A stretch of DNA of 14,191 nt, from IMG/VR virus record IMGVR_UViG_2529292908_000005; one strand, 5' to 3'. Positions within the stretch are counted from its first letter, which is position 1, and each line of letters starts with the position of its first letter. Shown piece after piece: positions 1 through 13,688 of the stretch. This stretch comes from a virus. Taxonomy: Duplodnaviria; Heunggongvirae; Uroviricota; Caudoviricetes. The notes under the pieces are model-generated. The model was not told the DNA's origin, searched no databases, and saw only the letters and a program-made list of their open reading frames with translations. Both the position numbers and the translations under genes were made by a program.

Positions 1-1578
1 ACCAGCATCATGCTCAAGGTACCAGGGGGCTCTTCCTGTTTCCTTGGTCAGTTTCATTGCCTTACCCCCGCTGGCTCCGGCATCATCCACGATTTGAGCC
101 TTGCCACCTCCGGCAGCCCAACCCTGTGGTGTCAACCGTCCTTCAGACTCAGATGCCCGGTAAGCAAATAGCGTACTCATCGTCGTGGTGTCTGCGGGTG
201 GCGTGGACGGTTTTGATGGTGTATCAGGTGACGGCTTCTCATCCGGTGGTGTCACGGTCTGCCCGCGCATCAGTTCAGCCGTGCGCCCTGCATGGAGCAT
301 AATAGCTGAGGCCAGACGGTCTGAAATGACGCCCCTGCGTGCCCATGAGCTGAAATGGCTGTCACGCTGTGTCGAAACAAAACTGCCCTGGGTTCGGGAT
401 GCTGCACCGTAATACCCGACAGCCACAATATCCGGGTCTTCCGCCGGAGCATTCGTTGGCGTGCTCTGTCCATTCTCATCCGTCAGGAACGGTACAAAGA
501 AAATTTTCTGTGCTTCCTTGCCTTTGTAGCCACCGTATACTGCCTCATATTTATCGGTGCCAGCGTTTTTCCAGTAATACGTGGTATCACCGCAAATCCA
601 CGGCACCGTGGTGGCATTTCCACTCACGCACTGCGCAGCAAGCGGAGCCAGGTCAGTTCTGAACTGCTGAACCATGGTCGTGAATAAACTATTATGCTGC
701 TGGCTTCCTGAGGCAAGGTCTGCCTCTCCCTGCATCCAGACCACAGCCAGAAGTTTGTTTTTCGGGTTTTTCGCCAGCGCGACTTTGGTGCGGCTTACCA
801 GGTCCTGATACAGAGGTTTACCGGCCCCCCAGCGTGAAGAATCAGCGGAAGCACCGCTGGCCTCACTGAATGAGCCGTCGGCTCCAGTGGTGAATGCTGA
901 CCCGCCACGACAACAGGGCACCAGAAGTATCCCGGCATTCTGTGGGATATAGGGAAGCAGTTTTTGGCAATATGCAACCCCTGACCGACAGTCCCGTACT
1001 GGCCTTTTGCCAGATCAGCTTTCGGGTGGTTTATCCCGCTCATATCCTGAACATCATGCAGGCAGTGGTCCGCCGGAATGATGTCGTTGTATGTACACGA
1101 CGTACCGTTGGGCGTTACCGTACTGCGGCGTGCCAGTTGCTTAATGCGTGGGTCCGGGCGGTCAAACGAATCCGGTAACGGCAGCCCCTCGCCGTAGGCC
1201 ATGCCATTTGACTGACCCGCGAGAATGACAACAAAGTAATATTCCGGCTCTGAACTGCTGCCATTCGTGCTACCGGAAGGCCCGGCGTTATCCGGTGCAT
1301 TCCAGTCGGAGGGCGTGAGCGTTCCGGCCACGTCAGATGTGATTGGAATGATGCCAGTCACGCCTGAACTGGTGATTTCTGCACTGGGATTACCGGATAC
1401 CGGCATTACCCATAATGGCTCTTTCGTGCTGAAGCGGATCACGCAGTCTGCGAAGGTGATCCCCCTTTATTACCCGAAGGGCGGAAGGGCTTTCAATAAA
1501 TGCCACCGTGCCACCGGCAACCTTGACTGAAAACTCTCCGGGCATGGCGGAGAGCATTTTCCACTTGGAGTCTGACAT
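1..1578 (-). pseudogene. nanS: NanS-p-like sialate 9-O-acetylesterase (SASA/SGNH domain) with extra N- and C-terminal regions; frame broken twice; 3' end runs off the window
   Basis: Minus-strand translation gives ...YYFVVILAGQSNGMAYGEGLP... (GQSN motif, ORF 795..1442) and, in the frame open from 960 to 1, ...LLPYIPQNAGILLVPCCRGGSAF...AVVWMQGEADL...GYYGA...; this matches NanS/YjhS-type esterases as recalled. N-terminal piece is ORF 1390..1578. Frame switches sit at C5 (1461-1465) and T5 (961-965). Pro/Thr-rich linker then a further domain towards position 1. Confidence 0.6.
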
Positions 1579-1663
1579 CGTCTTTTCTGCCTGTTTCTGA
1601 ATTAAACAGAGTCAGAATAGCGACCGCTGAAAAATATGTGTTTTGCGGAAATTCAAAAAAGCG

Positions 1664-2236
1664 TCACGGTACTTTTGGTGACGGAGCTGGTGAGGCAGGA
1701 AAATAACGATAAAGGGTGGAAAGGCCAATATCAAATATCAGTGCGATTTGTTTACGGGACTCGCCATTAGCCAGCAAACGGGCGATTTGCTCCCGCTCTT
1801 TCTCTGTCAGTTTCTGAGGTCTGCCGCCATGACGCCCCTGAGCACGGGCAGCAGCAAGACCCGCACGTGTACGTTCAATAATGAGTTCCCGCTCCATTTC
1901 CGCCAGCGCGCCCATTATATGGAAAAAGACACGTCCCATGGGAGTGGATGTATCAATATTGTCCGTAATGCTGCGGAAGTTAACGCCGCGTTGCCGGAGT
2001 TCTTCTGTTAAAAGGACAAGGTGCTGCATACTGCGTCCAAGGCGATCCAGTTTCCAGACCAGCAGGGTATCCCCTGGCCGGAGTCGCTTTAATGCGCGTT
2101 TAAGTCCGGGACGCTCCCTTGTCTTACCGCTTATTCTGTCTTCGAAAAACAGCTCACATCCTGCACATTCCAGCGCATTTCTTTGTAGCGCCGTATTCTG
2201 GTCATTTGTTGACACCCTGATATACCCAATCAGCAT
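1664..2236 (-). CDS. gin: Serine-recombinase DNA invertase (Gin/Pin/Hin/Cin family)
   Basis: 190-aa ORF starting MLIGYIRVSTNDQNT, with catalytic-domain pattern and C-terminal HTH ...LSTLYRYFPAS closely resembling Mu Gin as recalled; AAGGAA SD 5 nt upstream of ATG; start lies 66 bp from the left gix-like site. Confidence 0.95.
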   Translation of the reverse strand: MLIGYIRVSTNDQNTALQRNALECAGCELFFEDRISGKTRERPGLKRALKRLRPGDTLLVWKLDRLGRSMQHLVLLTEELRQRGVNFRSITDNIDTSTPMGRVFFHIMGALAEMERELIIERTRAGLAAARAQGRHGGRPQKLTEKEREQIARLLANGESRKQIALIFDIGLSTLYRYFPASPAPSPKVP

Positions 2237-2301
2237 ACGATTTCCTTATTATAAAAAGCCGGAATTGTCGCATGAGGAATAAAACAGAGTTAATCCTGGC
2301 T

Positions 2302-2327
2302 TTCCTGAAAACCTCGGTTTACGGGAA
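2302..2327. other. gix/hix-like 26-bp invertase crossover site (left)
   Basis: TTCCTGAAAACC|TCGGTTTACGGGAA: two inverted half-sites around a central dinucleotide; right half nearly identical to the Mu gix half-site TCGGTTTACAGGAA as recalled. Confidence 0.8.
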
Positions 2328-2687
2328 ACGGTAAACAGGGCGGCGAATGCTCTGCCATCGGACGGCACCGCCGTTGCCGCGAATAGACTCGCCACCCCAA
2401 GAAATATTAATGGGGTTCCCTTTGACGGGACGCAGGACATAAACATCACTTCTGGTATAACACAGCAGGATGCGGATTCCCGATATATCCAGGATATCAG
2501 GCTGGGAGCAGAGAACAGGCAGGTAATGTACGGTGGGGCATATTACTCTGCGTACGGTAATGTTATGGCAGGCCTGCAGATTGACAGTAAAGTTGATGCT
2601 TCAAAACGATTTTATAGCATTCAGACCCCTGCAAAAATTAGTCGGAGGTACATGGATTACGGTATCTCAGTTATAAATAGTCAGTAA
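2313..2687 (+). CDS. Silent alternative tail-fibre C-terminal cassette (Sv'-like); no start codon of its own
   Basis: Frame open from the left crossover site to TAA 2685-2687, encoding [48 protein letters not shown]...YMDYGISVINSQ. The first ~25 residues repeat the peptide encoded across the right site in the expressed fibre gene, so inversion would fuse this cassette to the constant fibre region. Confidence 0.7.
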   Translation, partial: LGLRETVNRAANALPSDGTAVAANRLATPRNINGVPFDGTQDINITSGITQQDADSRYIQDIRLGAENRQVMYGGAYYSAYGNVMAGLQIDSKVDASKRFYSIQTPAKISRRYMDYGISVINSQ

Positions 2688-2765
2688 ATAATATATTTTA
2701 AAACAGATTTATTTCCAGGAGGATTTTATGGAACTAAAAATATAACCCGTTATTATCCTGAAAAT

Positions 2766-3248
2766 ATGCCATATGGTAATAATGTTCAGTATTTCCAGAG
2801 TGAAGATGGTAAGGATTTCTACGAATCCCTGTCATTATTCACCAAAAAATATAAACTTTGCATAACACCTGACAGCGGCGTTATCTGCTCAATATCACAG
2901 GACGCCTCGGCGCTGTATCCTGCGGGGTTTTCTGTGGTTGAGGTCGATGAACTCCCTGAAGGCACGGATATTTCAGGAAACTGGAAGTTTGATAATGGCA
3001 TAATCTCCCGTATTCCGGTTAACTACGCAAGAAAACTGGAAGCAATGCGCCAGTCATATCTTAATCAGGCATATGAAAAAATTAATGACTGGAGAACGGA
3101 GCTACAACTGGGCACCATCAGCGATGAAGACAGAGCAGCACTTACCCAATGGATGGCATACATCAGTCAGGTGAAGAAAATGGAACTACCCGCCATTAAA
3201 ACAGAAGCTGAATTTAACGCCATTAAATGGCCTGAGCAGCCACAGTAA
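2766..3248 (+). CDS. tfa: Tail-fibre assembly protein (Tfa / Mu U-like chaperone)
   Basis: 160-aa ORF ...YFQSEDGKDFYE...ALYPAGFSVVEVDELPEG...GNWKFDNGIISR...KWPEQPQ, the characteristic Tfa pattern. ATG 2766 has no SD; a stronger start (AGGAGG + ATG 2728) lies upstream in another frame (see findings). Confidence 0.85.
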   Translation: MPYGNNVQYFQSEDGKDFYESLSLFTKKYKLCITPDSGVICSISQDASALYPAGFSVVEVDELPEGTDISGNWKFDNGIISRIPVNYARKLEAMRQSYLNQAYEKINDWRTELQLGTISDEDRAALTQWMAYISQVKKMELPAIKTEAEFNAIKWPEQPQ

Positions 3249-3251
3249 TAA

Positions 3252-3271
3252 AGAAGGCCGGAAGGCCTTCT
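3252..3271. terminator. Hairpin between convergent tfa and fibre genes (probable bidirectional terminator)
   Basis: AGAAGGCC-GGAA-GGCCTTCT: perfect 8-bp GC-rich stem with 4-nt loop, 3 nt after the tfa stop; T-rich run (TTATTACTG) on the minus-strand side. Confidence 0.5.
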
Positions 3272-3385
3272 GAATATCATTATATACTTGCAGCCGTCAC
3301 CCATGCTCCATTTAACAGATACTGCAACGGCCGGTAATACACGCCGCCGACGTTATCTGCCGTATTCTTACCGACATCCTGTACT

Positions 3386-4162
3386 TTAATTCCGGTAAGA
3401 ACATTGCCGCCCCCCCAGATTCAGATCCCAGCTTTCCCATGTTCCGGGCATATGTGCGGTCACCGACCCCAGTCTTATGGCGGTTACTGTTCCTGATGAG
3501 ATAGTGATATCCTGCGTCCCGTCAAAGGGAACACCATTAATTGTGTGGGCATTTGCCAGCCTGTTCGCGGCAACGGCGGTGCCGTCCGATGGCAGGGCAT
3601 TCGCCGCCCTGTTTACCGTTTCCCGTAAACCGACGTTATCGATAAAAGCCCCTTTATCCGGAATGTCTGCGCCGTTCTGCTCCCTGCGCAGGTAACGGTT
3701 ATCACCTTCGCTTTTGCTGTAAACATCCAGATTATTACGGGCGGTTCCCTTATTCTCCAGGTCGGCGAGATTCTGATCCTTCGCCAGGGCATTAACGTCA
3801 CCGGGACCAAGACTGTTTTTTGTGGCAAGCGTCCCCAGACCAAGATAACCACGGGCCAGACGCTGGGCCTCCGCACCGGCATCAGCAATTTCTTTCAGGT
3901 TATTTTTCCGGGAAAAGGCATTCGCAGCGATAATGGCTTTAATGGACAGCGTAAGCTGGTTTAACTGCGCCTTATCCGGCTGAATACTGGCTTCAGCCAG
4001 AATATTCAGCAGTTCGGCCTGGAGAATATTCAGCCAGTCCTGACCAATCCAGCTGATACCTTTTTGTCCGTCACCTTCGGTAAACCAGGTGGTGGTATTA
4101 CTCTGCGCCGGTGCCAGCGCAGGCATATTCGCCACGCCGGAATTATTATCAACATGAAACAT
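3386..4162 (-). CDS. Tail fibre protein (Mu S / P2 H-like): constant N-terminal part plus variable C-terminus inside the invertible segment; C-terminus probably truncated by a frameshift
   Basis: 258-aa ORF with ...[48 protein letters not shown]... crossing the right gix-like site; ATG overlaps the upstream gene stop (TAATG). A C7 tract at 3410-3416 is followed by a stop 8 codons later, while the -1 frame stays open to 3280. Confidence 0.85.
3620..3645. other. gix/hix-like 26-bp invertase crossover site (right, inverted)
   Basis: Reverse complement reads TTATCGATAACG|TCGGTTTACGGGAA; same TCGGTTTACGGGAA half-site as the left site and TTATC...AAC outer half as in Mu gix as recalled; lies inside the fibre coding sequence (encodes FIDNVGLRE). 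Confidence 0.8.
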
Positions 4163-4722
4163 TAAATAGTCTCCTCTTCATGGCTGTTTGCATACACGTA
4201 AATAAACGTCTGCCATGCAGGCTTATAACGGTTCAGAATACATTCCAGCGCACCGCCTTCATAAATACGCAGCGGCGTGAGAATATCATCCAGCACATTC
4301 ATATTCCGGTAGCCGGTTTCACTGTTAATCGTGACAATACTGACCCACTGCGAATCCGGTGAGGGCTGAATGTCAATCTGATAACCAAACTCCGCCGCAA
4401 ACCGGATATAAAATTCACGGTTCAGCGAGGGCTTCATCCGGTATTTATTTCCGGCATAACGCTGTCGCTCCGTGAGGGTGGCTCCGGCCATATCACACTC
4501 GGGAAGCCCGAGATAACGCTCCCAGTCTTCCAGCAGCAGGCGCGACGTGTCAGGGAAACGCTCGGCAAGCAGCTGTTTACCCGTCCAGGATACACGCGCT
4601 GTCGAATGACTGAGGCCCAGACATAATGATGCCAGTACGGATGACGGACGCTTGTCCCATGCCAGCCCGTCAGGCAGTAACTGCAACAGGGCGCGCTGAT
4701 GCGGGGTCAGGGTTACAGCCAT
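4162..4722 (-). CDS. Phage tail protein, DUF2313 / Mu gp48 / YmfQ-like
   Basis: 186-aa ORF in the conserved slot between baseplate J and tail fibre; start overlaps the J stop region and its stop overlaps the fibre start; composition and position match the gp48/YmfQ family as recalled. Confidence 0.75.
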
Positions 4723-5795
4723 GTGATTTCTCCTACCGTCAGCAGCTCACTGTCTCCCGCCTGAACTGACGTCAGCGGACTGCGCACTTCAAAATCCTCC
4801 AGATTTTTCACCCCTGCCACCGCCCGCCAGAAAGACGACGGCAGAACCAGACCGCCGGGCCGGGATTCGTTATACAACAGGTCGGTCAGCGCCTGTTTTA
4901 CGGCCGCCTGATTCTCCGGTGTTTTCGGGATGATCCTGATGCTGAAGGGCACCGGCTTATTGGTCAGTTTAAACACGGTCACCGTCGGCCCCAGAGGCTG
5001 TCCGACAGGCTGGCCGGTCGCCGGATCATCATGACTGCGGATATAATCCGCCACCCGCTGAACATCACCGTCACCGGGGAAAATATCCGGGTTATTATCC
5101 TGAACAAACGTTACCCCCACGCTGCCCGCCTGCGGCCATTCCGGGCGGCACCATGCCCGCGTCACGCCCGGCACTTCACGCGCCCAGCGTTCAAAATCAT
5201 ACTGCGTGCCGCCGGACGGTGGATTCTGCACCCGGAAAACCAGACGGGAAAGCAGCTCCGGCACGGTTTCCACATCCGCACCACCGGTGATCCCCGTTCC
5301 GGTCACCGTGGACGTCTGGTTGATCCCCGCCTGCGGTGTGATAAATGTCAGTTTTGTCCCTGCCGGGGCATTCCCCGCACGACCGGCACTTTCGGCTTCC
5401 ACACTGACATTCAGCGTACCGGCCTTACCGGTCAGGGAGGTGGTGATACGGTAAACCACGCCATCACTTCGCTGGAGAAGCACACCTTCCTTGATCCCCG
5501 CATCCGTGGTCAGCATCAGCTGAACCGGCCCGTCCCCCCGAGAGGCAGGCTTACGCATGACGCCCCAGAATGCACAGTGTTTCAGCAGTTCGGCTTCATC
5601 GGCTTCGGTCGGGATGATCTGACGCGCAATCCAGGCCAGATGCTCATGCTCCTGAGCAGATAACCCTGCCTGAGCGTAAGCAATGGCATTCAGGGTGGTT
5701 TCATTCACACCCGGCTGCGAGCCGGGCAGGCGCTGGCTGATATCCTGCTGTGTCTGCGTGATTAACTGTGCCAGCGGTAAAGGCTGATAAGGCAT
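4713..5795 (-). CDS. Baseplate J-like protein (Mu gp47 / P2 gpJ family)
   Basis: ORF-track frame 4713..5837 starts at TTG; a better start is ATG 5793-5795 (MPYQPLPLAQ...) with a GGG-containing SD. Translation shows the J-family layout (...ADEAELLKH.AFWGV.RK.A..A.G...GGADVE...) recalled from P2 J. Confidence 0.85.
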   Translation of the reverse strand: MPYQPLPLAQLITQTQQDISQRLPGSQPGVNETTLNAIAYAQAGLSAQEHEHLAWIARQIIPTEADEAELLKHCAFWGVMRKPASRGDGPVQLMLTTDAGIKEGVLLQRSDGVVYRITTSLTGKAGTLNVSVEAESAGRAGNAPAGTKLTFITPQAGINQTSTVTGTGITGGADVETVPELLSRLVFRVQNPPSGGTQYDFERWAREVPGVTRAWCRPEWPQAGSVGVTFVQDNNPDIFPGDGDVQRVADYIRSHDDPATGQPVGQPLGPTVTVFKLTNKPVPFSIRIIPKTPENQAAVKQALTDLLYNESRPGGLVLPSSFWRAVAGVKNLEDFEVRSPLTSVQAGDSELLTVGEITWL

Positions 5796-5954
5796 TAACC
5801 CTGTTCGATAAGGGGCTGATTTCCCGTGAGGAGGCAATACATATTATCAATCTCGCTCAAAAAAACTCTACCCCGGAAAATGCAGAAGATATCCAGGATG
5901 GCTCATATATTAATACCGACTGGCATTTCGACAATCTCCGGGCCTGTATGGGGA

Positions 5955-6242
5955 TTACCGCTGAAAAAGATTAAAAATTTTTGCATAATGTTCAGATGTA
6001 AGAATTGCTGAACCATCAACACCGAGCCTGCGGCGAACGTATTCCTCGCGGGCTATTTTATTATCCAGAGATACAGCATCCTTAATCAGGTTAATCTCCC
6101 GCTCCATTATCAAAAGGGCTTCTCTGGCTGCAAGATTTTCTTTTATCGCATATTCGATAATGTCCCGCATACGTTCAAGCATGCCGATTTTAGCCAGTTC
6201 TTCGTCGATAGATTTAGGCGCAAATTTGATTTCTTTTTCCAT
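5955..6242 (-). CDS. Hypothetical protein, predicted all-helical, encoded in AT-rich DNA
   Basis: ORF-track 5955..6257 (GTG start); preferred start ATG 6240-6242 (MEKEIKF...) with GAGGA SD 8 nt upstream, 1 nt after the stop of the upstream zinc-ribbon ORF; markedly lower GC than neighbours. Confidence 0.5.
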   Translation of the reverse strand: MEKEIKFAPKSIDEELAKIGMLERMRDIIEYAIKENLAAREALLIMEREINLIKDAVSLDNKIAREEYVRRRLGVDGSAILTSEHYAKIFNLFQR

Positions 6243-6243
6243 A

Positions 6244-6387
6244 TTATTCATCCTCACAATTTATACATGCAGTGTCGTCGCCCATATCGCAGTGGTTACA
6301 TTTTATCTCACCACAATGTGGGCACTCTTTCAGATACTCCGGGTCCTCATTTCCACAGGTGGGACATTCAACAATTTGCTCATCCAT
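6244..6387 (-). CDS. Small 4xCxxC zinc-ribbon protein (47 aa), not in the ORF track
   Basis: ATG 6385-6387 to TAA 6244-6246 translates MDEQIVECPTCGNEDPEYLKECPHCGEIKCNHCDMGDDTACINCEDE: four CxxC pairs in 47 residues; AGGGGA SD 7 nt upstream; start overlaps the stop of ORF 6380..6712 (ATGGATGA). Confidence 0.5.
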   Translation of the reverse strand: MDEQIVECPTCGNEDPEYLKECPHCGEIKCNHCDMGDDTACINCEDE

Positions 6388-6712
6388 TATGTATCCCCTG
6401 TAATTCCGGCAAGGCCGAAAGATGGCACCAGTGCGTCACCTGTCCGTCCTCATCTTCAAGGCAGGCTCCGGTTTCTTCATCAATAAAAAAGCCTTCATAC
6501 CCCATATGGCCGATGCGCAGTTCCTGTTGGTCACCATACTGAACAATCAGCACGACAGCCTCCATATCAGGCGGAAATGCGTCATCCAGTGAATGCCAGG
6601 GATAACCGCGCAAATCCCCGAAATAAACGCCGGTCAGCGTTCCGCCACAGAGCGGCATTCCGGCGGCACACACAAGAGGTTCATCTGATTCAACAAATAA
6701 GGTCGTTATCAT
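6380..6712 (-). CDS. Hypothetical protein (110 aa)
   Basis: ORF with ATGA start/stop overlap to the upstream gene at 6709-6712; acidic C-terminal half; no family recognised. Confidence 0.55.
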   Translation of the reverse strand: MITTLFVESDEPLVCAAGMPLCGGTLTGVYFGDLRGYPWHSLDDAFPPDMEAVVLIVQYGDQQELRIGHMGYEGFFIDEETGACLEDEDGQVTHWCHLSALPELQGIHNG

Positions 6713-7260
6713 GGCGTTAACTCCCGTAATACAGCGTCCTCGGCAGTCCGGCGACGGTAATAAACTGCGTGAGCAGAATGTTCAGATATTCCAAACTTTT
6801 CGCCAATTTCCCGGAATGACAGACGGCGTGGGTAATCGGAATCACGCAGCGCACGTATAAGACGTACATCATCATCAGATATGCGCGTGCCGGGGCGTAA
6901 CTCTCCGCACTTTGTTAATCCAGCACCAATCATTCCTGCCCGACATCTGACAGAATCTTTATTACGTCCGAGATATTCTCCCATTTGCTGGCAGGTCATT
7001 GTTCTGGCATTTTTTCGAATAAACTTATCTTCATCAGGTGTAAATCTTGGGTGTTTATATTTCAGTAACTCCGGGTATGAACTGCGCAATACACCAGTCC
7101 GGTTATATACAGCCCAGACAGTTCTTTTTATTCTGGCAGCAATATCCTTAACCGGGGTGGATGAATAAAGCGCAATCAGTAGCGCATCTTCTTCAGGTGT
7201 CCACGCGCGGACATGAGCGGGTGTACGACCTTTTCGCCCCATGGGTTGTAATTTCATCAT
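6709..7260 (-). CDS. Putative DNA-binding protein with tandem Myb/SANT-like HTH repeats
   Basis: 183 aa; repeats ...RAWTPEEDALLIALYS...IAARIKRTVWAVYNRTGVL and ...RFTPDEDKFIRKNARTMTCQQMGEYLGRNKDSVRCRA, plus a third weaker HTH-like segment; strong AGGGGGTGA SD; start 3 nt after the upstream stop. Confidence 0.6.
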   Translation of the reverse strand: MMKLQPMGRKGRTPAHVRAWTPEEDALLIALYSSTPVKDIAARIKRTVWAVYNRTGVLRSSYPELLKYKHPRFTPDEDKFIRKNARTMTCQQMGEYLGRNKDSVRCRAGMIGAGLTKCGELRPGTRISDDDVRLIRALRDSDYPRRLSFREIGEKFGISEHSAHAVYYRRRTAEDAVLRELTP

Positions 7261-7263
7261 GCA

Positions 7264-7779
7264 TCACCCCCTGACTCGCTTTTCAGCAGCATAAAACTCA
7301 TCAGACAGTATTTCGGTCATTTTCTGTTTTGCGGGTTTTACGCCGCACTGAAGGTAAATCACATCGTCAACGCAGAACCACTTCACAGGGCCAAACAGGA
7401 TTGCCGAGAAATCAATACCCAGCCAGAACAACAGCGCATCGGTTCTGGCATACGTGACGGGTGAATATTCACGCCACAGACTGTTCAGTTCATCAGAGGC
7501 AACACGCAGGGTTTTAGGGATACGTGATGTGCGCGGTGTGCAGCTCCAGCCATTCGACGCAGTCGGTTTTCGCCATAAGTCGCGATGAAAAGGATATTTG
7601 TCCTCCGTAAAACGCAGTCCCTTAAAGCAAAATCCACTGATACCGGATACAAATACCGACCGGCACGCAACATTCAGCACGGCCTCAAGGCGTTTTGCCT
7701 CATCCTTAACTTTCTGGCAGTCCTGCTGGTATTTTTGCCACGCAGCCAGCGCGGAAGGGTTTGATGTTTTAAAGAACAT
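7264..7779 (-). CDS. Hypothetical early-region protein (171 aa)
   Basis: ORF whose ATG shares a nucleotide with the upstream stop (TAATG at 7777-7781); no family recognised. Confidence 0.55.
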   Translation of the reverse strand: MFFKTSNPSALAAWQKYQQDCQKVKDEAKRLEAVLNVACRSVFVSGISGFCFKGLRFTEDKYPFHRDLWRKPTASNGWSCTPRTSRIPKTLRVASDELNSLWREYSPVTYARTDALLFWLGIDFSAILFGPVKWFCVDDVIYLQCGVKPAKQKMTEILSDEFYAAEKRVRG

Positions 7780-8312
7780 TACGCCACCTCCGCAGATATC
7801 CCGGCAGGCGCTGCTGTCCGGTCAACAATCAGGTAGCGCAGAACATGTTCAGTGATATTCCAGCCGCTTAAACCGCAGATAATGACGCCCAGGCGTATGT
7901 CGATATACGCCATCACAAACTGGGGCACGCCTTCTTTCATGGCCTGCTCATCAACTTCAGCCACCACATAAACGGTTTCACAGGTCAGAACGCCCTGAGC
8001 AAATTCCCACGCCATCGACGGAATATCATGCCCCTCAATCCATGGCAGGGATTTTCTGAAGCCGCACCACTGAACATCATCAGCCGCAGATTCCTGGCTG
8101 CATTTGCGACGAACCGGCTGCACCGGGCGGGGGCGCGGAATATCATAAAAACCGTTACATTCCGTCAGCACGCCTGCATCAACCGCATCACGCAGAAAAT
8201 AAACCATGGAGGATGGCGGCATATTCATTTTTTCAGCCAGTACACCGCAGGTCAGGCGGCCATAAATACGCAGCCAGTTTTTAACCCCTTCAAGCACTTT
8301 TGCATCAATCAT
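7779..8312 (-). CDS. Hypothetical early-region protein (177 aa)
   Basis: ORF with GGGGAAA SD 7 nt upstream of ATG 8310-8312; first gene after the 145-bp AT-rich gap downstream of gam; no family recognised. Confidence 0.55.
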   Translation of the reverse strand: MIDAKVLEGVKNWLRIYGRLTCGVLAEKMNMPPSSMVYFLRDAVDAGVLTECNGFYDIPRPRPVQPVRRKCSQESAADDVQWCGFRKSLPWIEGHDIPSMAWEFAQGVLTCETVYVVAEVDEQAMKEGVPQFVMAYIDIRLGVIICGLSGWNITEHVLRYLIVDRTAAPAGISAEVA

Positions 8313-8457
8313 GATTTATTTCCCCACCACATTATTAATGACGATATAAACGTATTTCATATTTCTTAACCCTTATTTTCTGTTTTCAGGCGCAAGCAGT
8401 CCCCTGACGCGAGCGCCATAATTAAAATGAAGTGATATTTAATTGATTAATGCGGTG

Positions 8458-8988
8458 TTATTTATTCAGTCCGGCGTCCTGTTCAAAAGGCTCGACATAA
8501 AAACTTTCAGCGCCTTTATTCACCTTGATACCGGCAATGCCTTTCACAGCATCCGGCTCCGCCAGGACGGCTTCCTTGTTCACTTCCTCTTTCGTGCGGA
8601 TGAAACGCTCAAGCCCCATACGGCGCAGCATTTCAATCACACCTTCCACATCACGGCTGACGCTGCATGATGGCGTTCCCAGCCGCCATGACACCGTTCC
8701 GGTGGTCAGATTGGCTGTTTTGGTTTTGCCGCCGTTCGTCAGCTCATCACGGTTGGTTTTGCACCAGTCCTGAATCCCTTTAAAAAGCACTTTGATTTGC
8801 TTTTTAAGATTTTCAATCTGCGGCGTATAACGGGCGGTGATTTCTGCCACTTCGTCATTCATCGCCGTTTCCAGGCGCAGCGCCTCTCGCTGAATATCTC
8901 CCAGGGTGCGGATATCACGGCTGACTTCTTCCCGGGTCTGCGGTGCCGCCTCGGCTGCGGCCTTTAATTTTGTAACGCGTTTAGCCAT
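8458..8988 (-). CDS. gam: Gam-like host-nuclease inhibitor (Mu Gam family, DNA-end binding)
   Basis: 176-aa ORF MAK...DIRTLGDIQREALRLETAMNDEVAEI...DWCKTNRDELTNGGKTKTANLTTGTVSWR...ERFIRTKEEVNKEAVL...EPFEQDAG, co-linear with Mu Gam as recalled; AGGA SD. Confidence 0.9.
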   Translation of the reverse strand: MAKRVTKLKAAAEAAPQTREEVSRDIRTLGDIQREALRLETAMNDEVAEITARYTPQIENLKKQIKVLFKGIQDWCKTNRDELTNGGKTKTANLTTGTVSWRLGTPSCSVSRDVEGVIEMLRRMGLERFIRTKEEVNKEAVLAEPDAVKGIAGIKVNKGAESFYVEPFEQDAGLNK

Positions 8989-8999
8989 TTTGTTTTTCC

Positions 9000-9293
9000 T
9001 TATTGCAGTGTGCCTGATGCTTTATGCACGCGGTGGCGTTTAATGATGGCATCCGCTCCAAAAGACTGTGCAGATGCCTGAAATTCCGCTGAGAGAAACT
9101 GAATAATTGCAGGACTGTGATACTGGAGAATACTTGCATAAACGTCACAGAGTGACGTCGGCCTGTTATCCGTATCACGTTCTGTTTTTACATCCACACC
9201 AATCTTTTCATGCACTTCAACACTGTCATTGCCTGCCGGTTTTTCGTCATGCGAAACATGCTCAAATTCAAAAATAACGCGTACTTTGCTCAT
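9000..9293 (-). CDS. Hypothetical small early protein (paralogue 1 of a tandem pair)
   Basis: ORF-track 9000..9320; preferred start ATG 9291-9293 (MSKVRVIFEFEHV...) with GGGG SD, 4 nt after the upstream gene stop; N-terminus parallels the upstream gene (MSKVVRIIFEYKE...). Confidence 0.55.
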   Translation of the reverse strand: MSKVRVIFEFEHVSHDEKPAGNDSVEVHEKIGVDVKTERDTDNRPTSLCDVYASILQYHSPAIIQFLSAEFQASAQSFGADAIIKRHRVHKASGTLQ

Positions 9294-10340: not shown

Positions 10341-11273
10341 TCACACCTGTGAGAGTAATTCAGGGTTGGTATAAACCTCTTTAAAGGCCGCATTAATATG
10401 TTTTTCTGTCAGCGCCGCGCCTTCACCGCTGGCGGTGAGCCACGCCTGGTTAAGCGTATGTGTCAGAACGCGTAACGCTCCCGGCTTTTCAGCGATAGCC
10501 TGCATGACGGCCAGCTCGGCCTCACCACTGATACCCCATGCCCTGGCAATGGCCAGCACATCCGCCTTTTTGGCCTTGCGAAGTTGTTTTGTACGGGCAA
10601 GACGGCTGAACAGGCGCGATAAATCATCAAAGGCGCGGCGTCCACCTTTAAACAATCCGCGCGGGTTACCAATAAGCACCATCCCGATCCCCGTGGCGTC
10701 CTGAATTGCCCGGAGTTGCTCCAGACCGTCAATACCAAGATGATCCGCCTCATCCACAATCACCAGTCCACGCGTTCCCGTCAGGCGACGGCGGATGGCG
10801 CGGGATAATGCCCCTTTGTTCGCGCGGGTGTAATCAATCCCCAGCGCATCGGCCAGCTCCAGCAGACACTCCGTGACGCTGGAGTGCGCGGGTGACAGGG
10901 TGATCATCCAGGTGTTTGGTTGCTCCTGGCAGTAATTACGGGCAGTGGCCGTTTTACCCACACCCGGTACGCCCACAATAACGTTAATACAGCCCATCAG
11001 GCGAACCGCCTGAAACAGTGCGCGCAGCTCCTGGACTGTCTGAGTTTCCACAAACTGCGGCGGTTCCGGCAGTGCGCTTTGTTTATTCCAGTTCTCATAC
11101 CAGGAGCGCAGGGAAGCAGCCACAGCGGCGTTATCGCCTTTATATTTCCCCTTGCGGAAAGCCGATAATGTGCCGTCGGAAATTCCCGCCTCTCTGGCGA
11201 TGGCATACTGCGTCAGCACGCCGCCATCAATAAGTTCATCAATGGTCTTGATTACATCGTTTATATCGGTCAT
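10341..11273 (-). CDS. B: MuB-like transposition target-capture protein (AAA+ ATPase)
   Basis: 310-aa ORF with Walker A VGVPGVGKTATARNY, ...LVIVDEADHLG..., N-terminal HTH-like region, and co-linearity with Mu B as recalled (...GDN..V...L..W...PEPP.FVETQTV...KPGALR.L...); GAGG SD; directly downstream of the transposase. Confidence 0.92.
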   Translation of the reverse strand: MTDINDVIKTIDELIDGGVLTQYAIAREAGISDGTLSAFRKGKYKGDNAAVAASLRSWYENWNKQSALPEPPQFVETQTVQELRALFQAVRLMGCINVIVGVPGVGKTATARNYCQEQPNTWMITLSPAHSSVTECLLELADALGIDYTRANKGALSRAIRRRLTGTRGLVIVDEADHLGIDGLEQLRAIQDATGIGMVLIGNPRGLFKGGRRAFDDLSRLFSRLARTKQLRKAKKADVLAIARAWGISGEAELAVMQAIAEKPGALRVLTHTLNQAWLTASGEGAALTEKHINAAFKEVYTNPELLSQV

Positions 11274-11312: not shown

Positions 11313-11348
11313 AATAACCTGAGTCGCCGCTCGGGTTATTTTTTATTT
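11313..11348 (+). terminator. Stem-loop plus T-tract in the A-B intergenic region; reads as an intrinsic terminator on the strand antisense to A/B
   Basis: AATAACCTGAG-TCGCCG-CTCGGGTTATT (11-bp stem with one G-U pair on the plus-strand RNA) followed by TTTTATTT; on the sense (minus) strand the stem has a C-A mismatch and a weaker U-tract. Confidence 0.35.
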
Positions 11349-13438
11349 CAGGCCAGAGGGTCATTTTCTTTTAATTTCGCTTCAAGCAGCTGCAATCCCC
11401 GCTGGAAATTACGCTCGTATTCTTCATCAGGTTCATCGTCAGCGACCGGTTGCTGAACGATCACCGTATTACCCACAGGGCGGTATATATTTTCCAGCCA
11501 CGGCTCCTGTGGCTTGTGCTCCAGCACGTTGACAATCTCATCCTCGGCATCACGGATTTTTTCCTCTGCGCGTTTACGCATGCCTTTAAGGCGCTGCTGC
11601 TGTTTGTGGTATTCCGCGCTGACCGGGAAGGCTTCGCGTTTATTGCCGTCCCATACCGCCTCGCAAATCACGCTGCCATCCGGGCGACGTACGGTAATTC
11701 GTTCGGCATCATGAATGTCATAGCTGATAAGCACCTTACGACCATGCTCGTCACGCAGCTCGGGCGCGTAGTAAATATTATTCAGCCAGCGTATTTCACA
11801 GCGTCTTACAGGGCGTTCCACCATCGGCCGGAACATATCCCGCAGCTCAACATCGGACAGCCATTCAATTTCCGTGTCCTCTTCCGCCAGGCGTTTTTTT
11901 CTGAACTCCGCCGGGCTGTAATGCTTGCCGTTCGGCTTCACCGGTAATTCATCGTGCGGCCGGTTGTTGTACCACTCAACACCATCACGAATGGCATCAA
12001 TCAGTTCAGCCCAGGACGGTAAATCACGCATCGCTGACTGCTGCCGGGCGTTCAGCCGTTTGCCCTGTTGCAGGGCAGTAAATGCCGAGCGTAAATCGCG
12101 GTTGGTTTTGCGTAACGTCTCGCGATCTGCACCTTTCCCGAAATAGGTGCGGTATTTACGGGCTATGCGCATCGGTAATGTGCGGTTAAGCCGTTCGATA
12201 ATGCCTCGTCCCTGCGGATTACCGGCAATCCCGGTCGGGTGATTAATCCCCAGTCGCGGCAGTATCCCCACAACCTCCTTATCCAGGATGTCGGCGGTTT
12301 CCCCGGAGCCGTTATCCGAGTAATACAGAAACGGTTTGCCGTGATGGCGAATGCCGTGCTGTATGGCACCGGCTACGGCGAAAACATTTTCAGCCAGGTC
12401 AAGGCTCCAGCCCACCACAAAGCGCGTGCCACCGTCGATAACAAAGGTCACTTCCGGTGCAAATGGCCGACCGTGAACCGGGTGTGCGCATTTCAGCTTC
12501 ATGCCGTGACCGTCACCAATCCAGACATAATTCACCGGCATTTTTGACCAGTCGCGGCGCGTGAATCCCTCAAGCTGGCGGTATTCACTGCCGGTCACCC
12601 GGCCTTTTTGTTTCACCACTTCCGGCAGTTTCTTCATTGCGCGGCGAATGGTGTCATAAGACGGCATGATATCGAGCATATAAGGCTCATCAGCGTGCCG
12701 GTGCTGCCATTCAGCAACAAAATCCTCGTAAGCCTCGGTCATTGGTCGGCCGTTTGACTGGCGATACTGCGCCAGAAATTCGGGCAGCCAGTTAATATCT
12801 TCGGCTTTTATTTCCTGGCGCTTACCCGGTGCCAGTAAAAGCAGGCGTTCAGCGGCGTTCTGCGCCTTGTTAAAGGCCGCAATCCAGCGTTTCAGCGTGA
12901 TTTCACTTAACGCGCGGCTGTTTCCCTTTTTGGCGTTCGCCGTCTCAACCATTGCCACAATGCGCTCGTCCAGCTGCGAACGTGCCAGGTTGTCAACGAT
13001 AAACCGGATAGCCTTCGCACAGCTGAAACCAGGTTGTTGCGCGACTTTCAGCACCTCGCTGACGATCGCGATTCGTGCATCAGCCACCTGGCGCTGGTTT
13101 TCAGTCAGGGCATTAAGGCGTTCAACCATCAGTTGTGGTGATCCGCGATATGCCTCCACCGCATCAACCACGGCAGGCGAGCGTCTGGCCTTTGTCACCA
13201 CTGGAGCCGGTGATTCATCGACTTTTTGAGTCATCAGTTGCAGGGCGTAGCGTTCACGTAATGCCTGCTGCGTCACTTCAGGTAAACAGTCGATGCTGTA
13301 TTCAGTTGCTTTAGAGCCTGAGCGACGACGGGAACAACAGCTTTTCCCTTGTACGTAACGTTGTAATGCCTGGCGAATACCTTTTGTTGTAGCAGGCATT
13401 CCGGGCGCGCCAATCAGTTCTTTTGCAATGACATACAT
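11348..13438 (-). CDS. A: Mu-type DDE transposase (MuA-like)
   Basis: 696-aa ORF of MuA size, immediately between ner-like and B-like genes; start 1 nt after the ner stop (TGATATG); internal ...YVWIGDGHGMKLKC... core region. Assignment rests mainly on size and conserved ner-A-B synteny. Confidence 0.9.
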   Translation of the reverse strand: MYVIAKELIGAPGMPATTKGIRQALQRYVQGKSCCSRRRSGSKATEYSIDCLPEVTQQALRERYALQLMTQKVDESPAPVVTKARRSPAVVDAVEAYRGSPQLMVERLNALTENQRQVADARIAIVSEVLKVAQQPGFSCAKAIRFIVDNLARSQLDERIVAMVETANAKKGNSRALSEITLKRWIAAFNKAQNAAERLLLLAPGKRQEIKAEDINWLPEFLAQYRQSNGRPMTEAYEDFVAEWQHRHADEPYMLDIMPSYDTIRRAMKKLPEVVKQKGRVTGSEYRQLEGFTRRDWSKMPVNYVWIGDGHGMKLKCAHPVHGRPFAPEVTFVIDGGTRFVVGWSLDLAENVFAVAGAIQHGIRHHGKPFLYYSDNGSGETADILDKEVVGILPRLGINHPTGIAGNPQGRGIIERLNRTLPMRIARKYRTYFGKGADRETLRKTNRDLRSAFTALQQGKRLNARQQSAMRDLPSWAELIDAIRDGVEWYNNRPHDELPVKPNGKHYSPAEFRKKRLAEEDTEIEWLSDVELRDMFRPMVERPVRRCEIRWLNNIYYAPELRDEHGRKVLISYDIHDAERITVRRPDGSVICEAVWDGNKREAFPVSAEYHKQQQRLKGMRKRAEEKIRDAEDEIVNVLEHKPQEPWLENIYRPVGNTVIVQQPVADDEPDEEYERNFQRGLQLLEAKLKENDPLA

Positions 13439-13439
13439 A

Positions 13440-13688
13440 TCATGACGCCTTTCTCATATAGCTCTTAACCTGGTATCGACTGGGCCAGATTTCTTCAGGC
13501 GATACCCCAAGAGCATCAGCAATTATTTGCTGATACGGTCGGCAAGGAGTACGTAATACGCTTTTCAGCGAATCCCTGCTGTAACCAGCCTTTAAAGATA
13601 AAGAGCGCAGTGATAAGCCAGCCATGTGTAAGCGCGCCTTGATGATTTCAGGCGGCCAATCGTGATCTGAAACTTCTCTTCTACTCAT
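13440..13688 (-). CDS. ner: Ner-like DNA-binding regulator (Ner/Nlp family)
   Basis: 82-aa ORF ...DWPPEIIKARL...GLSLRSLSLKAGYSRDSL...QQIIADALGVSPEEIWPSRY..., co-linear with Mu Ner / E. coli Nlp as recalled; first gene of the early operon, divergent from the repressor. Confidence 0.88.
   Translation of the reverse strand: MSRREVSDHDWPPEIIKARLHMAGLSLRSLSLKAGYSRDSLKSVLRTPCRPYQQIIADALGVSPEEIWPSRYQVKSYMRKAS

What the first reader, a model, noticed from the sequence alone, without database searches (positions are those of the whole stretch)
6709..7260. Early-operon protein built from tandem Myb/SANT-like repeats
Two clear repeats (RAWTPEEDALL…RTVWAVYNRTGVL and RFTPDEDKFI…RNKDSVRCRA) and a third HTH-like segment suggest a multi-HTH DNA-binding protein. 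It is the only regulator-like protein in a prophage that lacks a recognisable Mor/C late activator.
Basis: seen in the sequence. Interest (0 to 1): 0.4.

Follow-up and report, generated by a model that had tools for sequence, protein, structure and literature searches.

The report
T5 D5-like triple-HTH phage DNA-binding protein
This is a real early gene of a defective Mu-like prophage that encodes a small basic protein made of three Myb/SANT-like helix-turn-helix domains; it is a distant relative of phage T5's D5 DNA-binding protein, public databases already name it as SANT/Myb-like, and it does not stand in for a missing late activator.

The parts
6709..7260 (-). CDS of the 183-aa triple-HTH protein (stop codon at 6709-6711). 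It is basic: pI 10.0, 36 K+R against 22 D+E.
   Evidence: ORF list; PHROG 323 E 6.6e-53; orthologue alignments; dN/dS 0.27-0.30; pI.
7267..7272 (-). Shine-Dalgarno-like AGGGGG, 6 nt upstream of the ATG. It lies inside the end of the upstream gene, whose TGA stop is at 7264-7266.
   Evidence: Read directly from the sequence.
7213..7260 (-). N-terminal arm, residues 1-16 (consensus MxLKPMGxPGxxPAH). It is conserved in orthologues but predicted disordered (pLDDT below 50).
   Evidence: Alignment A2; pLDDT; mean column entropy 1.6 bits.
7075..7212 (-). Repeat 1, residues 17-62: a Myb/SANT-like three-helix HTH. W20 is invariant.
   Evidence: AF2 helices 22-32/37-44/48-59; Pfam Myb_DNA-binding 20.8 bits, below the 24.4-bit cut-off; family profile against c-Myb E 3.6e-8; hhalign against repeat 2.
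6919..7050 (-). Repeat 2, residues 71-114: a second Myb/SANT-like three-helix HTH, with F73 in place of the Trp.
   Evidence: AF2 helices 75-84/90-97/101-111; hhalign R1 vs R2 E 2.7e-16; phrog_14101 match to residues 73-108.
6883..6918 (-). Linker, residues 115-126, with invariant K117 and G119 (motif K-x-G-D/E).
   Evidence: Alignment A2, invariant columns.
6748..6882 (-). Domain 3, residues 127-171: a third HTH. It is the most conserved domain and is probably a diverged third copy of the repeat, with a longer loop between helices 1 and 2. It resembles sigma-70 region 4 and homeodomain-type HTH.
   Evidence: AF2 helices 129-140/149-156/160-169; below-threshold Pfam matches to HTH_AsnC-type, HTH_10 and Sigma70_r4; hhalign against R1 and R2 at 88.7% and 91.9%.
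6712..6747 (-). Conserved C-terminal helix, residues 172-183 (consensus R-x-T-A-x-D-x-x-x-R-E-x-L-P).
   Evidence: AF2 helix 173-181; alignment A2.
6709..6712 (-). ATGA overlap: the stop of this gene overlaps the start of the downstream 110-aa gene (6380-6712), indicating translational coupling.
   Evidence: ORF coordinates; sequence.
5795..5796 (.). Deletion or rearrangement junction. The early region is fused directly to the ATG of baseplate gene J (4713-5795, minus strand). This removes gemA, mor, the lysis genes, the head genes and most tail genes.
   Evidence: blastn against intact relatives stops at window 5796; Pfam Baseplate_J; the junction is not contiguous in any of 5,426 complete E. 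coli genomes.

Best explanation
The gene encodes a small, basic protein that is probably monomeric (inferred only from there being three DNA-binding domains on one chain). It consists of three tandem three-helix HTH domains joined by short linkers: two clear Myb/SANT-like repeats and a diverged third. It is the temperate-phage counterpart of the C-terminal three-domain part of phage T5 protein D5. It is made from the early transcript together with the transposition genes (A, B) and the DNA-end-protection gene (gam). Its likely action is to bind double-stranded DNA, with the third helix of each domain in successive major grooves, in the manner of the tandem repeats of Myb proteins. By occupying DNA it would modulate early DNA transactions, as D5 does in T5: replication and the balance between early and late transcription. 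It is an accessory gene that moves between phages, not a core regulator. Phage Mu gave no match in the phage search, and relatives sit in early operons of both Mu-like and P2-like phages. What is shown: the gene is real, the fold, the repeat homology, the homology to D5, the early-operon position and the distribution. What is inferred: DNA binding, whether binding is sequence-specific or cooperative and non-specific, and the biological effect.

For: Sequence. The family profile hits c-Myb at E 3.6e-8, B-Myb at 1.6e-7 and the three-HTH protein Cbp1 at 1.6e-5.

Link to D5. phrog_323 'transcriptional regulator, D5-like' matches at E 6.6e-53 over residues 2-182. T5 D5 itself matches phrog_323 at E 1.2e-71. 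hhalign of the family against T5 D5 gives Prob 97.3%, E 2.6e-11 over 164 columns, pairing residues 17-183 with D5 71-252. The T5 GenBank record describes D5 as a DNA-binding protein required for DNA replication and late transcription and involved in shut-off. PMC12630848 cites McCorquodale 1979 for this.

Charge. pI is 10.0.

Context. Copies at 50% identity or more lie between gam and gemA/mor in Mu-like prophages. Copies at 36-46% identity lie in P2-like early operons, upstream of the replication gene gpA and directly adjacent to it in about half of the ten loci.

Variation. Differences between the two alleles fall on helix 3 of each domain: 18 of 33 positions against about 30 of 150 elsewhere, Fisher p 1e-4 to 4e-4. 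Helix 3 is also the most variable helix across orthologues. This is what is expected if helix 3 is the functional contact surface.
Against: There is no experimental datum for this protein or for any close relative. The window protein falls below the Pfam Myb gathering score (20.8 against 24.4 bits) and has only the first of the three canonical Myb tryptophans. Foldseek against the PDB found nothing at E <= 1e-3 for the whole model, and pTM is 0.44, so the relative arrangement of the domains is undefined. SANT domains can bind proteins rather than DNA. The roughly 70-residue N-terminal part of D5 is absent here. No candidate DNA target was found: in a comparison of prophages carrying the two alleles, the early and middle regulatory DNA is 96-100% identical, so allele-specific operators within that region are unlikely.
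Confidence: 0.6

Rival explanations
1. It is a sequence-specific transcription factor whose alleles have different DNA specificities. The three recognition helices would read an extended site of about 25-30 bp on phage or host DNA, and the two alleles (the 'SANT/Myb' type and the 'AsnC family' type) would recognise different sites.
For: Allelic substitutions are enriched in helix 3 of all three domains, while helices 1 and helix 2 of domain 3 are almost invariant. The gene is the most divergent alignable stretch in otherwise 93-100% identical prophages. Tandem Myb repeats are classical sequence-specific readers (established knowledge; structural matches).
Against: No co-diverging non-coding DNA was seen across about 13 kb of the early, middle and lysis regions between prophages carrying the two alleles. 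The characterised relative, T5 D5, is not known to be sequence-specific (my own knowledge, not tested here). No repeated candidate site was identified.
Confidence: 0.25
2. The DNA-binding surface is under an arms race with host immunity. D5-like proteins would be sensed by defence systems through their HTH surface, and the helix-3 divergence would reflect escape rather than a change of target.
For: A 2026 preprint reports that T5 D5 triggers the type IX retron Kva2. Its HTH is predicted to bind the retron msdDNA, mimicking the retron's own winged-helix protein; escape phages carry D5 mutations; and D5 is mildly toxic when expressed alone (bioRxiv 10.64898/2026.07.11.737809). The window protein is homologous to D5. 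Divergence is focused on helix 3.
Against: dN/dS over the whole gene is 0.27-0.30, which does not indicate positive selection; codon-level tests were not run. Nothing links this protein to any retron. The protein and its neighbours have no PADLOC match, although that library lists defence genes, not their triggers.
Confidence: 0.1
3. It is a GcrA-like reader of DNA methylation, or a sigma-70 cofactor, that works with phage Dam-type methyltransferases.
Against: The window protein has no Pfam GcrA match at E <= 1 and nothing resembling the GcrA C-terminal sigma-interacting domain. No methylase is adjacent in the Mu-like loci. The seven Dam-linked loci represent only about two lineages, so the synteny may simply be inherited (Dam identities fall into 68-100% and 54-56% groups).
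Confidence: 0.05

Closest known systems
Phage T5 protein D5 (T5.118, YP_006946; PHROG 323 'transcriptional regulator, D5-like')
   Same: Both belong to the same PHROG family. The profile alignment covers all three HTH domains (Prob 97.3%). Both are early genes in a DNA-metabolism neighbourhood. D5 also gives weak Myb and Sigma70_r4 Pfam signals at the corresponding positions.
   Different: D5 is 255 aa and has an extra N-terminal part of about 70 residues that is absent here. Identity is only about 24%. D5 belongs to a virulent phage and is needed for replication and late transcription, whereas this gene gave no match in Mu or D108 and so appears dispensable for that phage type. No function has been tested for the prophage protein.
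Eukaryotic Myb/SANT repeats (c-Myb R1R2R3, R2R3-MYB, CoREST SANT2, Cdc5/Cef1, SNAPc4)
   Different: Only the first of the three spaced tryptophans is kept. The loop between helices 1 and 2 is about 3 residues shorter (alignments). The score is below the Pfam gathering threshold. The setting is a bacteriophage.
GcrA N-terminal DNA-binding domain (PDB 5yiu)
   Different: There is no GcrA HMM match and no sigma-interacting C-terminal domain. This protein has three domains where GcrA has one.
Cbp1, the CRISPR repeat-binding protein of Sulfolobus (PDB 2lvs)
   Same: It is also a small basic protein made of tandem imperfect HTH repeats. It is the top Foldseek PDB match (E 0.08, prob 0.94), and hmmsearch gives E 1.6e-5.
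   Different: It is archaeal and binds CRISPR repeats. The window protein has no NCBIfam HTH_Cbp1 match.
Mu Mor / C late activators
   Same: Both are small HTH proteins of Mu-type phages. One BFVD 'Mor transcription activator' entry appears among the structural matches (E 8.9e-4).
   Different: There is no Pfam Mor match. Intact relatives carry a separate Mor-family gene downstream. This protein is an array of HTH domains on a single chain, whereas Mor acts as a dimer with one HTH per subunit (my own knowledge).

Membership tests
T5 D5-like proteins (PHROG 323) | Significant match to the family HMM over most of the protein | tested here: met
   phrog_323 E 6.6e-53, residues 2-182 against profile positions 80-256 of 319. 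T5 D5 itself scores E 1.2e-71.
T5 D5-like proteins (PHROG 323) | Homology to T5 D5 across the three-HTH region | tested here: met
   hhalign of A2 against T5 D5: Prob 97.3%, E 2.6e-11, 164 columns, residues 17-183 against D5 71-252.
T5 D5-like proteins (PHROG 323) | The N-terminal region of D5 (about 70 residues) is present | tested here: not met
   The alignment starts at D5 residue 71. The window protein has only a 16-residue N-terminal arm.
T5 D5-like proteins (PHROG 323) | Binds double-stranded DNA; required for replication, late transcription and early shut-off | not testable with these tools
   Known for T5 D5 only (record note; citation).
Myb/SANT domain (Pfam PF00249 / PF13921) | Score at or above the Pfam gathering threshold | tested here: not met
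   20.8 bits against 24.4 for PF00249 and 17.3 against 22.9 for PF13921. Orthologue P0023 reaches exactly 24.4, and the multi-repeat relative P0024 scores 140 bits.
Myb/SANT domain (Pfam PF00249 / PF13921) | Three-helix HTH fold of about 50 residues that superposes on solved Myb/SANT domains | tested here: met
Myb/SANT domain (Pfam PF00249 / PF13921) | Three regularly spaced tryptophans (or aromatic residues) forming the core | tested here: not met
   Only W20 (repeat 1) and F73 (repeat 2) are kept at the first position. From the c-Myb alignments, read by eye, the second and third positions are not aromatic in the window protein.
Myb/SANT domain (Pfam PF00249 / PF13921) | Tandem homologous repeats | tested here: met
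   R1 vs R2 E 1.5e-11 and 2.7e-16. Domain 3 vs R1 and R2 at 88.7% and 91.9% probability.
AsnC/Lrp family (the database name of the 72% allele) | N-terminal AsnC-type HTH plus a C-terminal alpha/beta ligand-binding (RAM) domain | tested here: not met
   There is only a below-threshold HTH_AsnC-type match, 19.1 against 27 bits, at residues 130-164. No RAM-domain family appears among the Pfam matches. The AF2 model is all-alpha. The name 'AsnC family protein' is a misnomer.
GcrA (Pfam PF07750) | GcrA HMM match including the sigma-70-interacting C-terminal domain | tested here: not met
   No PF07750 match at E <= 1. Only the DNA-binding-domain fold is similar.
Mor/C late transcription activators | Match to the Mor family, in the position between gemA and the lysis genes | tested here: not met
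   No Mor Pfam match. In intact relatives a separate Mor-family gene lies between gp16 and the lysozyme gene.

The most novel reading that the evidence does not exclude
The gene is a temperate-phage version of T5 D5 whose DNA-contact helices are being exchanged or diversified between otherwise near-identical prophages. Either the alleles read different DNA targets, giving Mu-like and P2-like phages a second specificity determinant beside the immunity region, or the D5-type HTH surface is what host defences such as type IX retrons sense. In the second case the prophage protein would be both a modulator of replication and transcription and an immune trigger under escape selection.
Probability: 0.2. 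Interest if true: 0.5.

Novelty: new member of a known kind. Interest (0 to 1): 0.27.

Why it matters
In itself it matters little. The protein is already labelled SANT/Myb-like in RefSeq, and PHROGs already groups it with T5 D5. Three points are useful.

1. It corrects two misleading readings: the 'AsnC family protein' name given to the sister allele, and the idea that this gene replaces Mor.

2. It connects a widespread and unstudied accessory gene of Mu-like and P2-like prophages of E. coli and Salmonella (matching DNA in 232 of 5,426 complete E. coli genomes) to the one member of the family with genetics and biochemistry, T5 D5. D5 has recently been reported as a retron trigger.

3. The divergence between alleles is focused on helix 3. 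That gives a concrete and inexpensive experiment to distinguish sequence-specific regulation, generic DNA coating and immune evasion.

Tried and rejected
- Single-sequence repeat test. Smith-Waterman with shuffling gave only z = 2.8 for R1 vs R2 and nothing for domain 3. Profiles were needed.
- phmmer of the single protein against PDB sequences gave nothing significant.
- NCBIfam: no family for the protein.
- PADLOC: no defence-system match for the protein or nine neighbouring early genes.
- The search for related loci failed with A2 (no conserved stretch). With A1 it found nothing in the GTDB representative genomes. The viral collection gave 19 loci.
- Mor/C substitute idea: rejected.
- Search for co-diverging regulatory DNA between prophages with the two alleles: none found in about 13 kb.
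- Promoter and terminator scan of 5700-9100: nothing above the shuffle expectation.
- The DRT4 trigger ORF55 of T5 (PMC12783706) was checked and is unrelated: it is a PriA-NTD-like ssDNA binder.
- The original D5 papers (PMC353123) and the Davison review (PMC4743489) are not held. D5 biochemistry beyond the GenBank note therefore rests on secondary citation and on my own knowledge.

Full report
**What the window is.** The window is a defective Mu-like prophage of E. coli. On the minus strand, going from high to low coordinates, it carries:
- a Ner-like gene (13440-13688; Pfam HTH_35, E 2.5e-19);
- transposase A (11348-13438) and MuB (10341-11273);
- several small early genes;
- gam (8458-8988; Phage_Mu_Gam, E 5.5e-42);
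- a gp11-like gene (7779-8312) and a PHROG 2314 gene (7264-7779);
- the target gene (6709-7260);
- three small genes (6380-6712, 6244-6387, 5955-6257).

A repressor gene runs on the plus strand from 13727 or 13859 to the window end.

At 5795/5796 the early region is joined directly to the ATG of baseplate gene J (4713-5795). Downstream of that come a gp48-like gene, tail-fibre genes, a G-type invertible segment (inverted repeats 2307-2455 and 3492-3640) and a Gin invertase (1664-2236). Intact relatives in E. coli JE86-ST05, DETEC-S792, DLI.5a and O157:H7 FRIK804 continue after the small genes with gp16/GemA, a Mor-family activator, lysozyme and the head genes. So Mor is missing from the window because of a deletion or rearrangement. 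The exact junction is not contiguous in any of 5,426 complete E. coli genomes.

The ORF is 183 aa and contains the quoted peptides. A strong Shine-Dalgarno sequence (AGGGGG, 7267-7272) lies 6 nt before the ATG, inside the end of the upstream gene. The stop codon overlaps the next gene's start as ATGA. dN/dS against the 72%-identical allele is 0.27-0.30.

Pairwise similarity of the two repeats is weak (z = 2.8). Profile-profile comparison shows homology in register: E 1.5e-11 with 17 orthologues and 2.7e-16 with 23. The third segment aligns with both repeats at 88.7% and 91.9% probability once the diverse alignment is used, and it has a longer loop between helices 1 and 2.

AlphaFold2 predicts three 3-helix bundles with pLDDT of 84-94 inside the domains, joined by low-confidence linkers (pTM 0.44). 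The architecture is kept in orthologues down to 30% identity. W20, K117, G119 and D129 are invariant. The N-terminal arm (KPMGxPG) and the C-terminal tail (RxTAxD...RExLP) are also conserved.

The window protein itself is below the Pfam Myb gathering score (20.8 against 24.4 bits) and keeps only the first of the three canonical tryptophans. It is therefore best described as Myb/SANT-like rather than canonical. RefSeq (PGAP) already names it 'SANT/Myb-like DNA-binding domain-containing protein' (WP_000977058 and relatives). The 72%-identical allele is named 'AsnC family protein'. That name is unjustified: the HTH match is below threshold, no ligand-binding domain family appears among the Pfam matches, and the model is all-alpha.

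**The link to T5 D5.** PHROG 323, 'transcriptional regulator, D5-like', matches at E 6.6e-53. I fetched phage T5, confirmed that its D5 protein (T5.118, 255 aa) is the namesake of that family (E 1.2e-71), and compared it with the orthologue profile. The result was Prob 97.3%, E 2.6e-11 over 164 columns, covering all three domains (residues 17-183 against D5 71-252).

The T5 record describes D5 as a DNA-binding protein required for DNA replication and late transcription and involved in shut-off. PMC12630848 cites McCorquodale 1979 for this. A 2026 preprint reports that D5 triggers the type IX retron Kva2, and an AlphaFold3 model there has its HTH engaging the retron msdDNA. It also reports that D5 is mildly toxic on its own and that escape phages carry D5 mutations (bioRxiv 10.64898/2026.07.11.737809). 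BFVD contains many phage proteins with the same multi-HTH layout, including a 'D5 protein' of a T5-like Vibrio phage.

**Distribution and context.** An exhaustive profile search found 8,465 cluster representatives at E <= 1e-3. About twenty are full-length orthologues of 170-216 aa. Most of the rest are longer proteins with 4-10 tandem copies of the repeat.

Copies at 50% identity or more lie in Mu-like early regions between gam and gemA/mor. Copies at 36-46% identity lie in early operons of P2-like phages (Peduoviridae). The P2-like gene order is Cox ... [Dam-type D12 methyltransferase] - this gene - [PAPS reductase] - replication protein gpA. Other copies lie in a Rac-like region, beside a C5 methylase, and in another temperate element. 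Phage Mu and D108 gave no tblastn match at E <= 1e-5. The gene is thus a horizontally mobile accessory gene of early operons.

**Allelic pattern (new here).** Between prophages whose flanking genes are 93-99% identical at the nucleotide level, this gene is only 78.8% identical, falling to 62-78% in window 6761-7120. Over about 13 kb of early, middle and lysis DNA it is the most divergent alignable stretch. The only other difference is a non-homologous cassette immediately downstream.

The amino-acid differences concentrate in helix 3 of each of the three domains: 18 of 33 positions against about 30 of 150 elsewhere, Fisher p 1e-4 to 4e-4. The helix 1 segments are almost invariant. In Myb-type HTH domains helix 3 is the recognition helix (established knowledge). 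So the functional surface is what differs between alleles.

Two readings remain open: changed DNA specificity, or escape from a sensor of that surface. The regulatory DNA of the two prophages is 96-100% identical, so allele-specific operators within that region are unlikely.

**Mechanism proposed.** The protein is an early-expressed, basic (pI 10.0) array of three HTH domains. It would bind duplex DNA along successive major grooves and, like D5, modulate replication and the early/late transcription balance.
- Confidence that it is a DNA-binding HTH array: high.
- Confidence that it acts like D5: moderate.
- Sequence specificity and the physiological target: unknown.

The rivals are a specific transcription factor with allele-specific targets, an immune-evasion arms race, and a GcrA-like methylation reader linked to phage Dam. 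Each is listed with its refutation test.

**Verdict.** This is a new member of a known kind and of low to moderate interest.

Noticed in passing
window 5795-5796: The early region is fused exactly to the start codon of baseplate gene J, deleting gemA, mor, the lysis genes, the head genes and most tail genes. The junction is not found contiguous in any of 5,426 complete E. coli genomes, so it is a private deletion, a rearrangement, or possibly an assembly join.
   Followed up: partly
window 6761-7120 compared with L022, L020, L032: Two alleles of the target gene (78.8% nucleotide identity) lie in otherwise 93-99% identical prophages. The amino-acid differences concentrate in the third helix of all three HTH domains (Fisher p about 1e-4).
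   Followed up: yes
P0024 (807 aa) and P0027 (762 aa); not in the window: These are long relatives with 9 to 14 or more tandem Myb-like repeats. In P0024 (a ResIII/Helicase_C helicase followed by 9 near-identical 46-47 aa repeats), helices 1-2 are almost invariant between repeats, while about 7 positions of helix 3 are hypervariable (entropy 1.9-2.5 bits). This looks like a modular DNA-reading array. 8,465 representatives match the profile.
   Followed up: partly
L004, L008, L009, L025, L026, L028, L029 (P2-like loci): In 7 of 10 P2-like early operons the orthologue lies directly downstream of a D12-class (Dam-type) DNA adenine methyltransferase gene and upstream of replication gene gpA. In two of these loci a PAPS-reductase-like gene is inserted between. 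The seven loci represent only about two lineages.
   Followed up: partly
window 5796-6390 compared with L032 11292-11990: The three small genes just downstream of the target form a replaceable cassette: a 100-aa gene at 5955-6257, a 47-aa four-cysteine zinc-ribbon ORF at 6244-6387, and part of the 110-aa gene. Non-homologous small genes occupy the same place in O157-type relatives.
   Followed up: no
window 8313-8457: There is a 145-bp gap between gam and the gp11-like gene. Relatives (L002, L032, L020) carry an extra gene of about 180 aa here, so this is an insertion/deletion polymorphism.
   Followed up: no
window 1664-3640: A Mu G-type invertible tail-fibre segment: inverted repeats 2307-2392/3555-3640 (93% complementary) and 2406-2455/3492-3541, a Gin-like serine invertase at 1664-2236, and a tail-fibre assembly gene at 2766-3248 on the plus strand.
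   Followed up: partly
window 1-1660: Only fragmentary ORFs occur here (the longest is 215 aa, at 795-1442, with no Pfam match). The relative DLI.5a has an intact gene for a 684-aa DUF6645 protein next to the invertase gene, so the window copy may be a pseudogene or may simply be cut by the window end.
   Followed up: no
L001 318-397 and L002 578-662 (intact relatives): PGAP annotates a 'tRNA-OTHER' between the head-morphogenesis and virion-morphogenesis genes of the intact Mu-like prophages. This region is deleted in the window.
   Followed up: no
L031 14546-17332 (phage T5 gene T5.108): The T5 'replication origin binding' helicase is annotated with a SANT/Myb InterPro domain (IPR001005). That is the same helicase-plus-Myb-like architecture as P0024. 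Pfam here found only Herpes_ori_bp.
   Followed up: no
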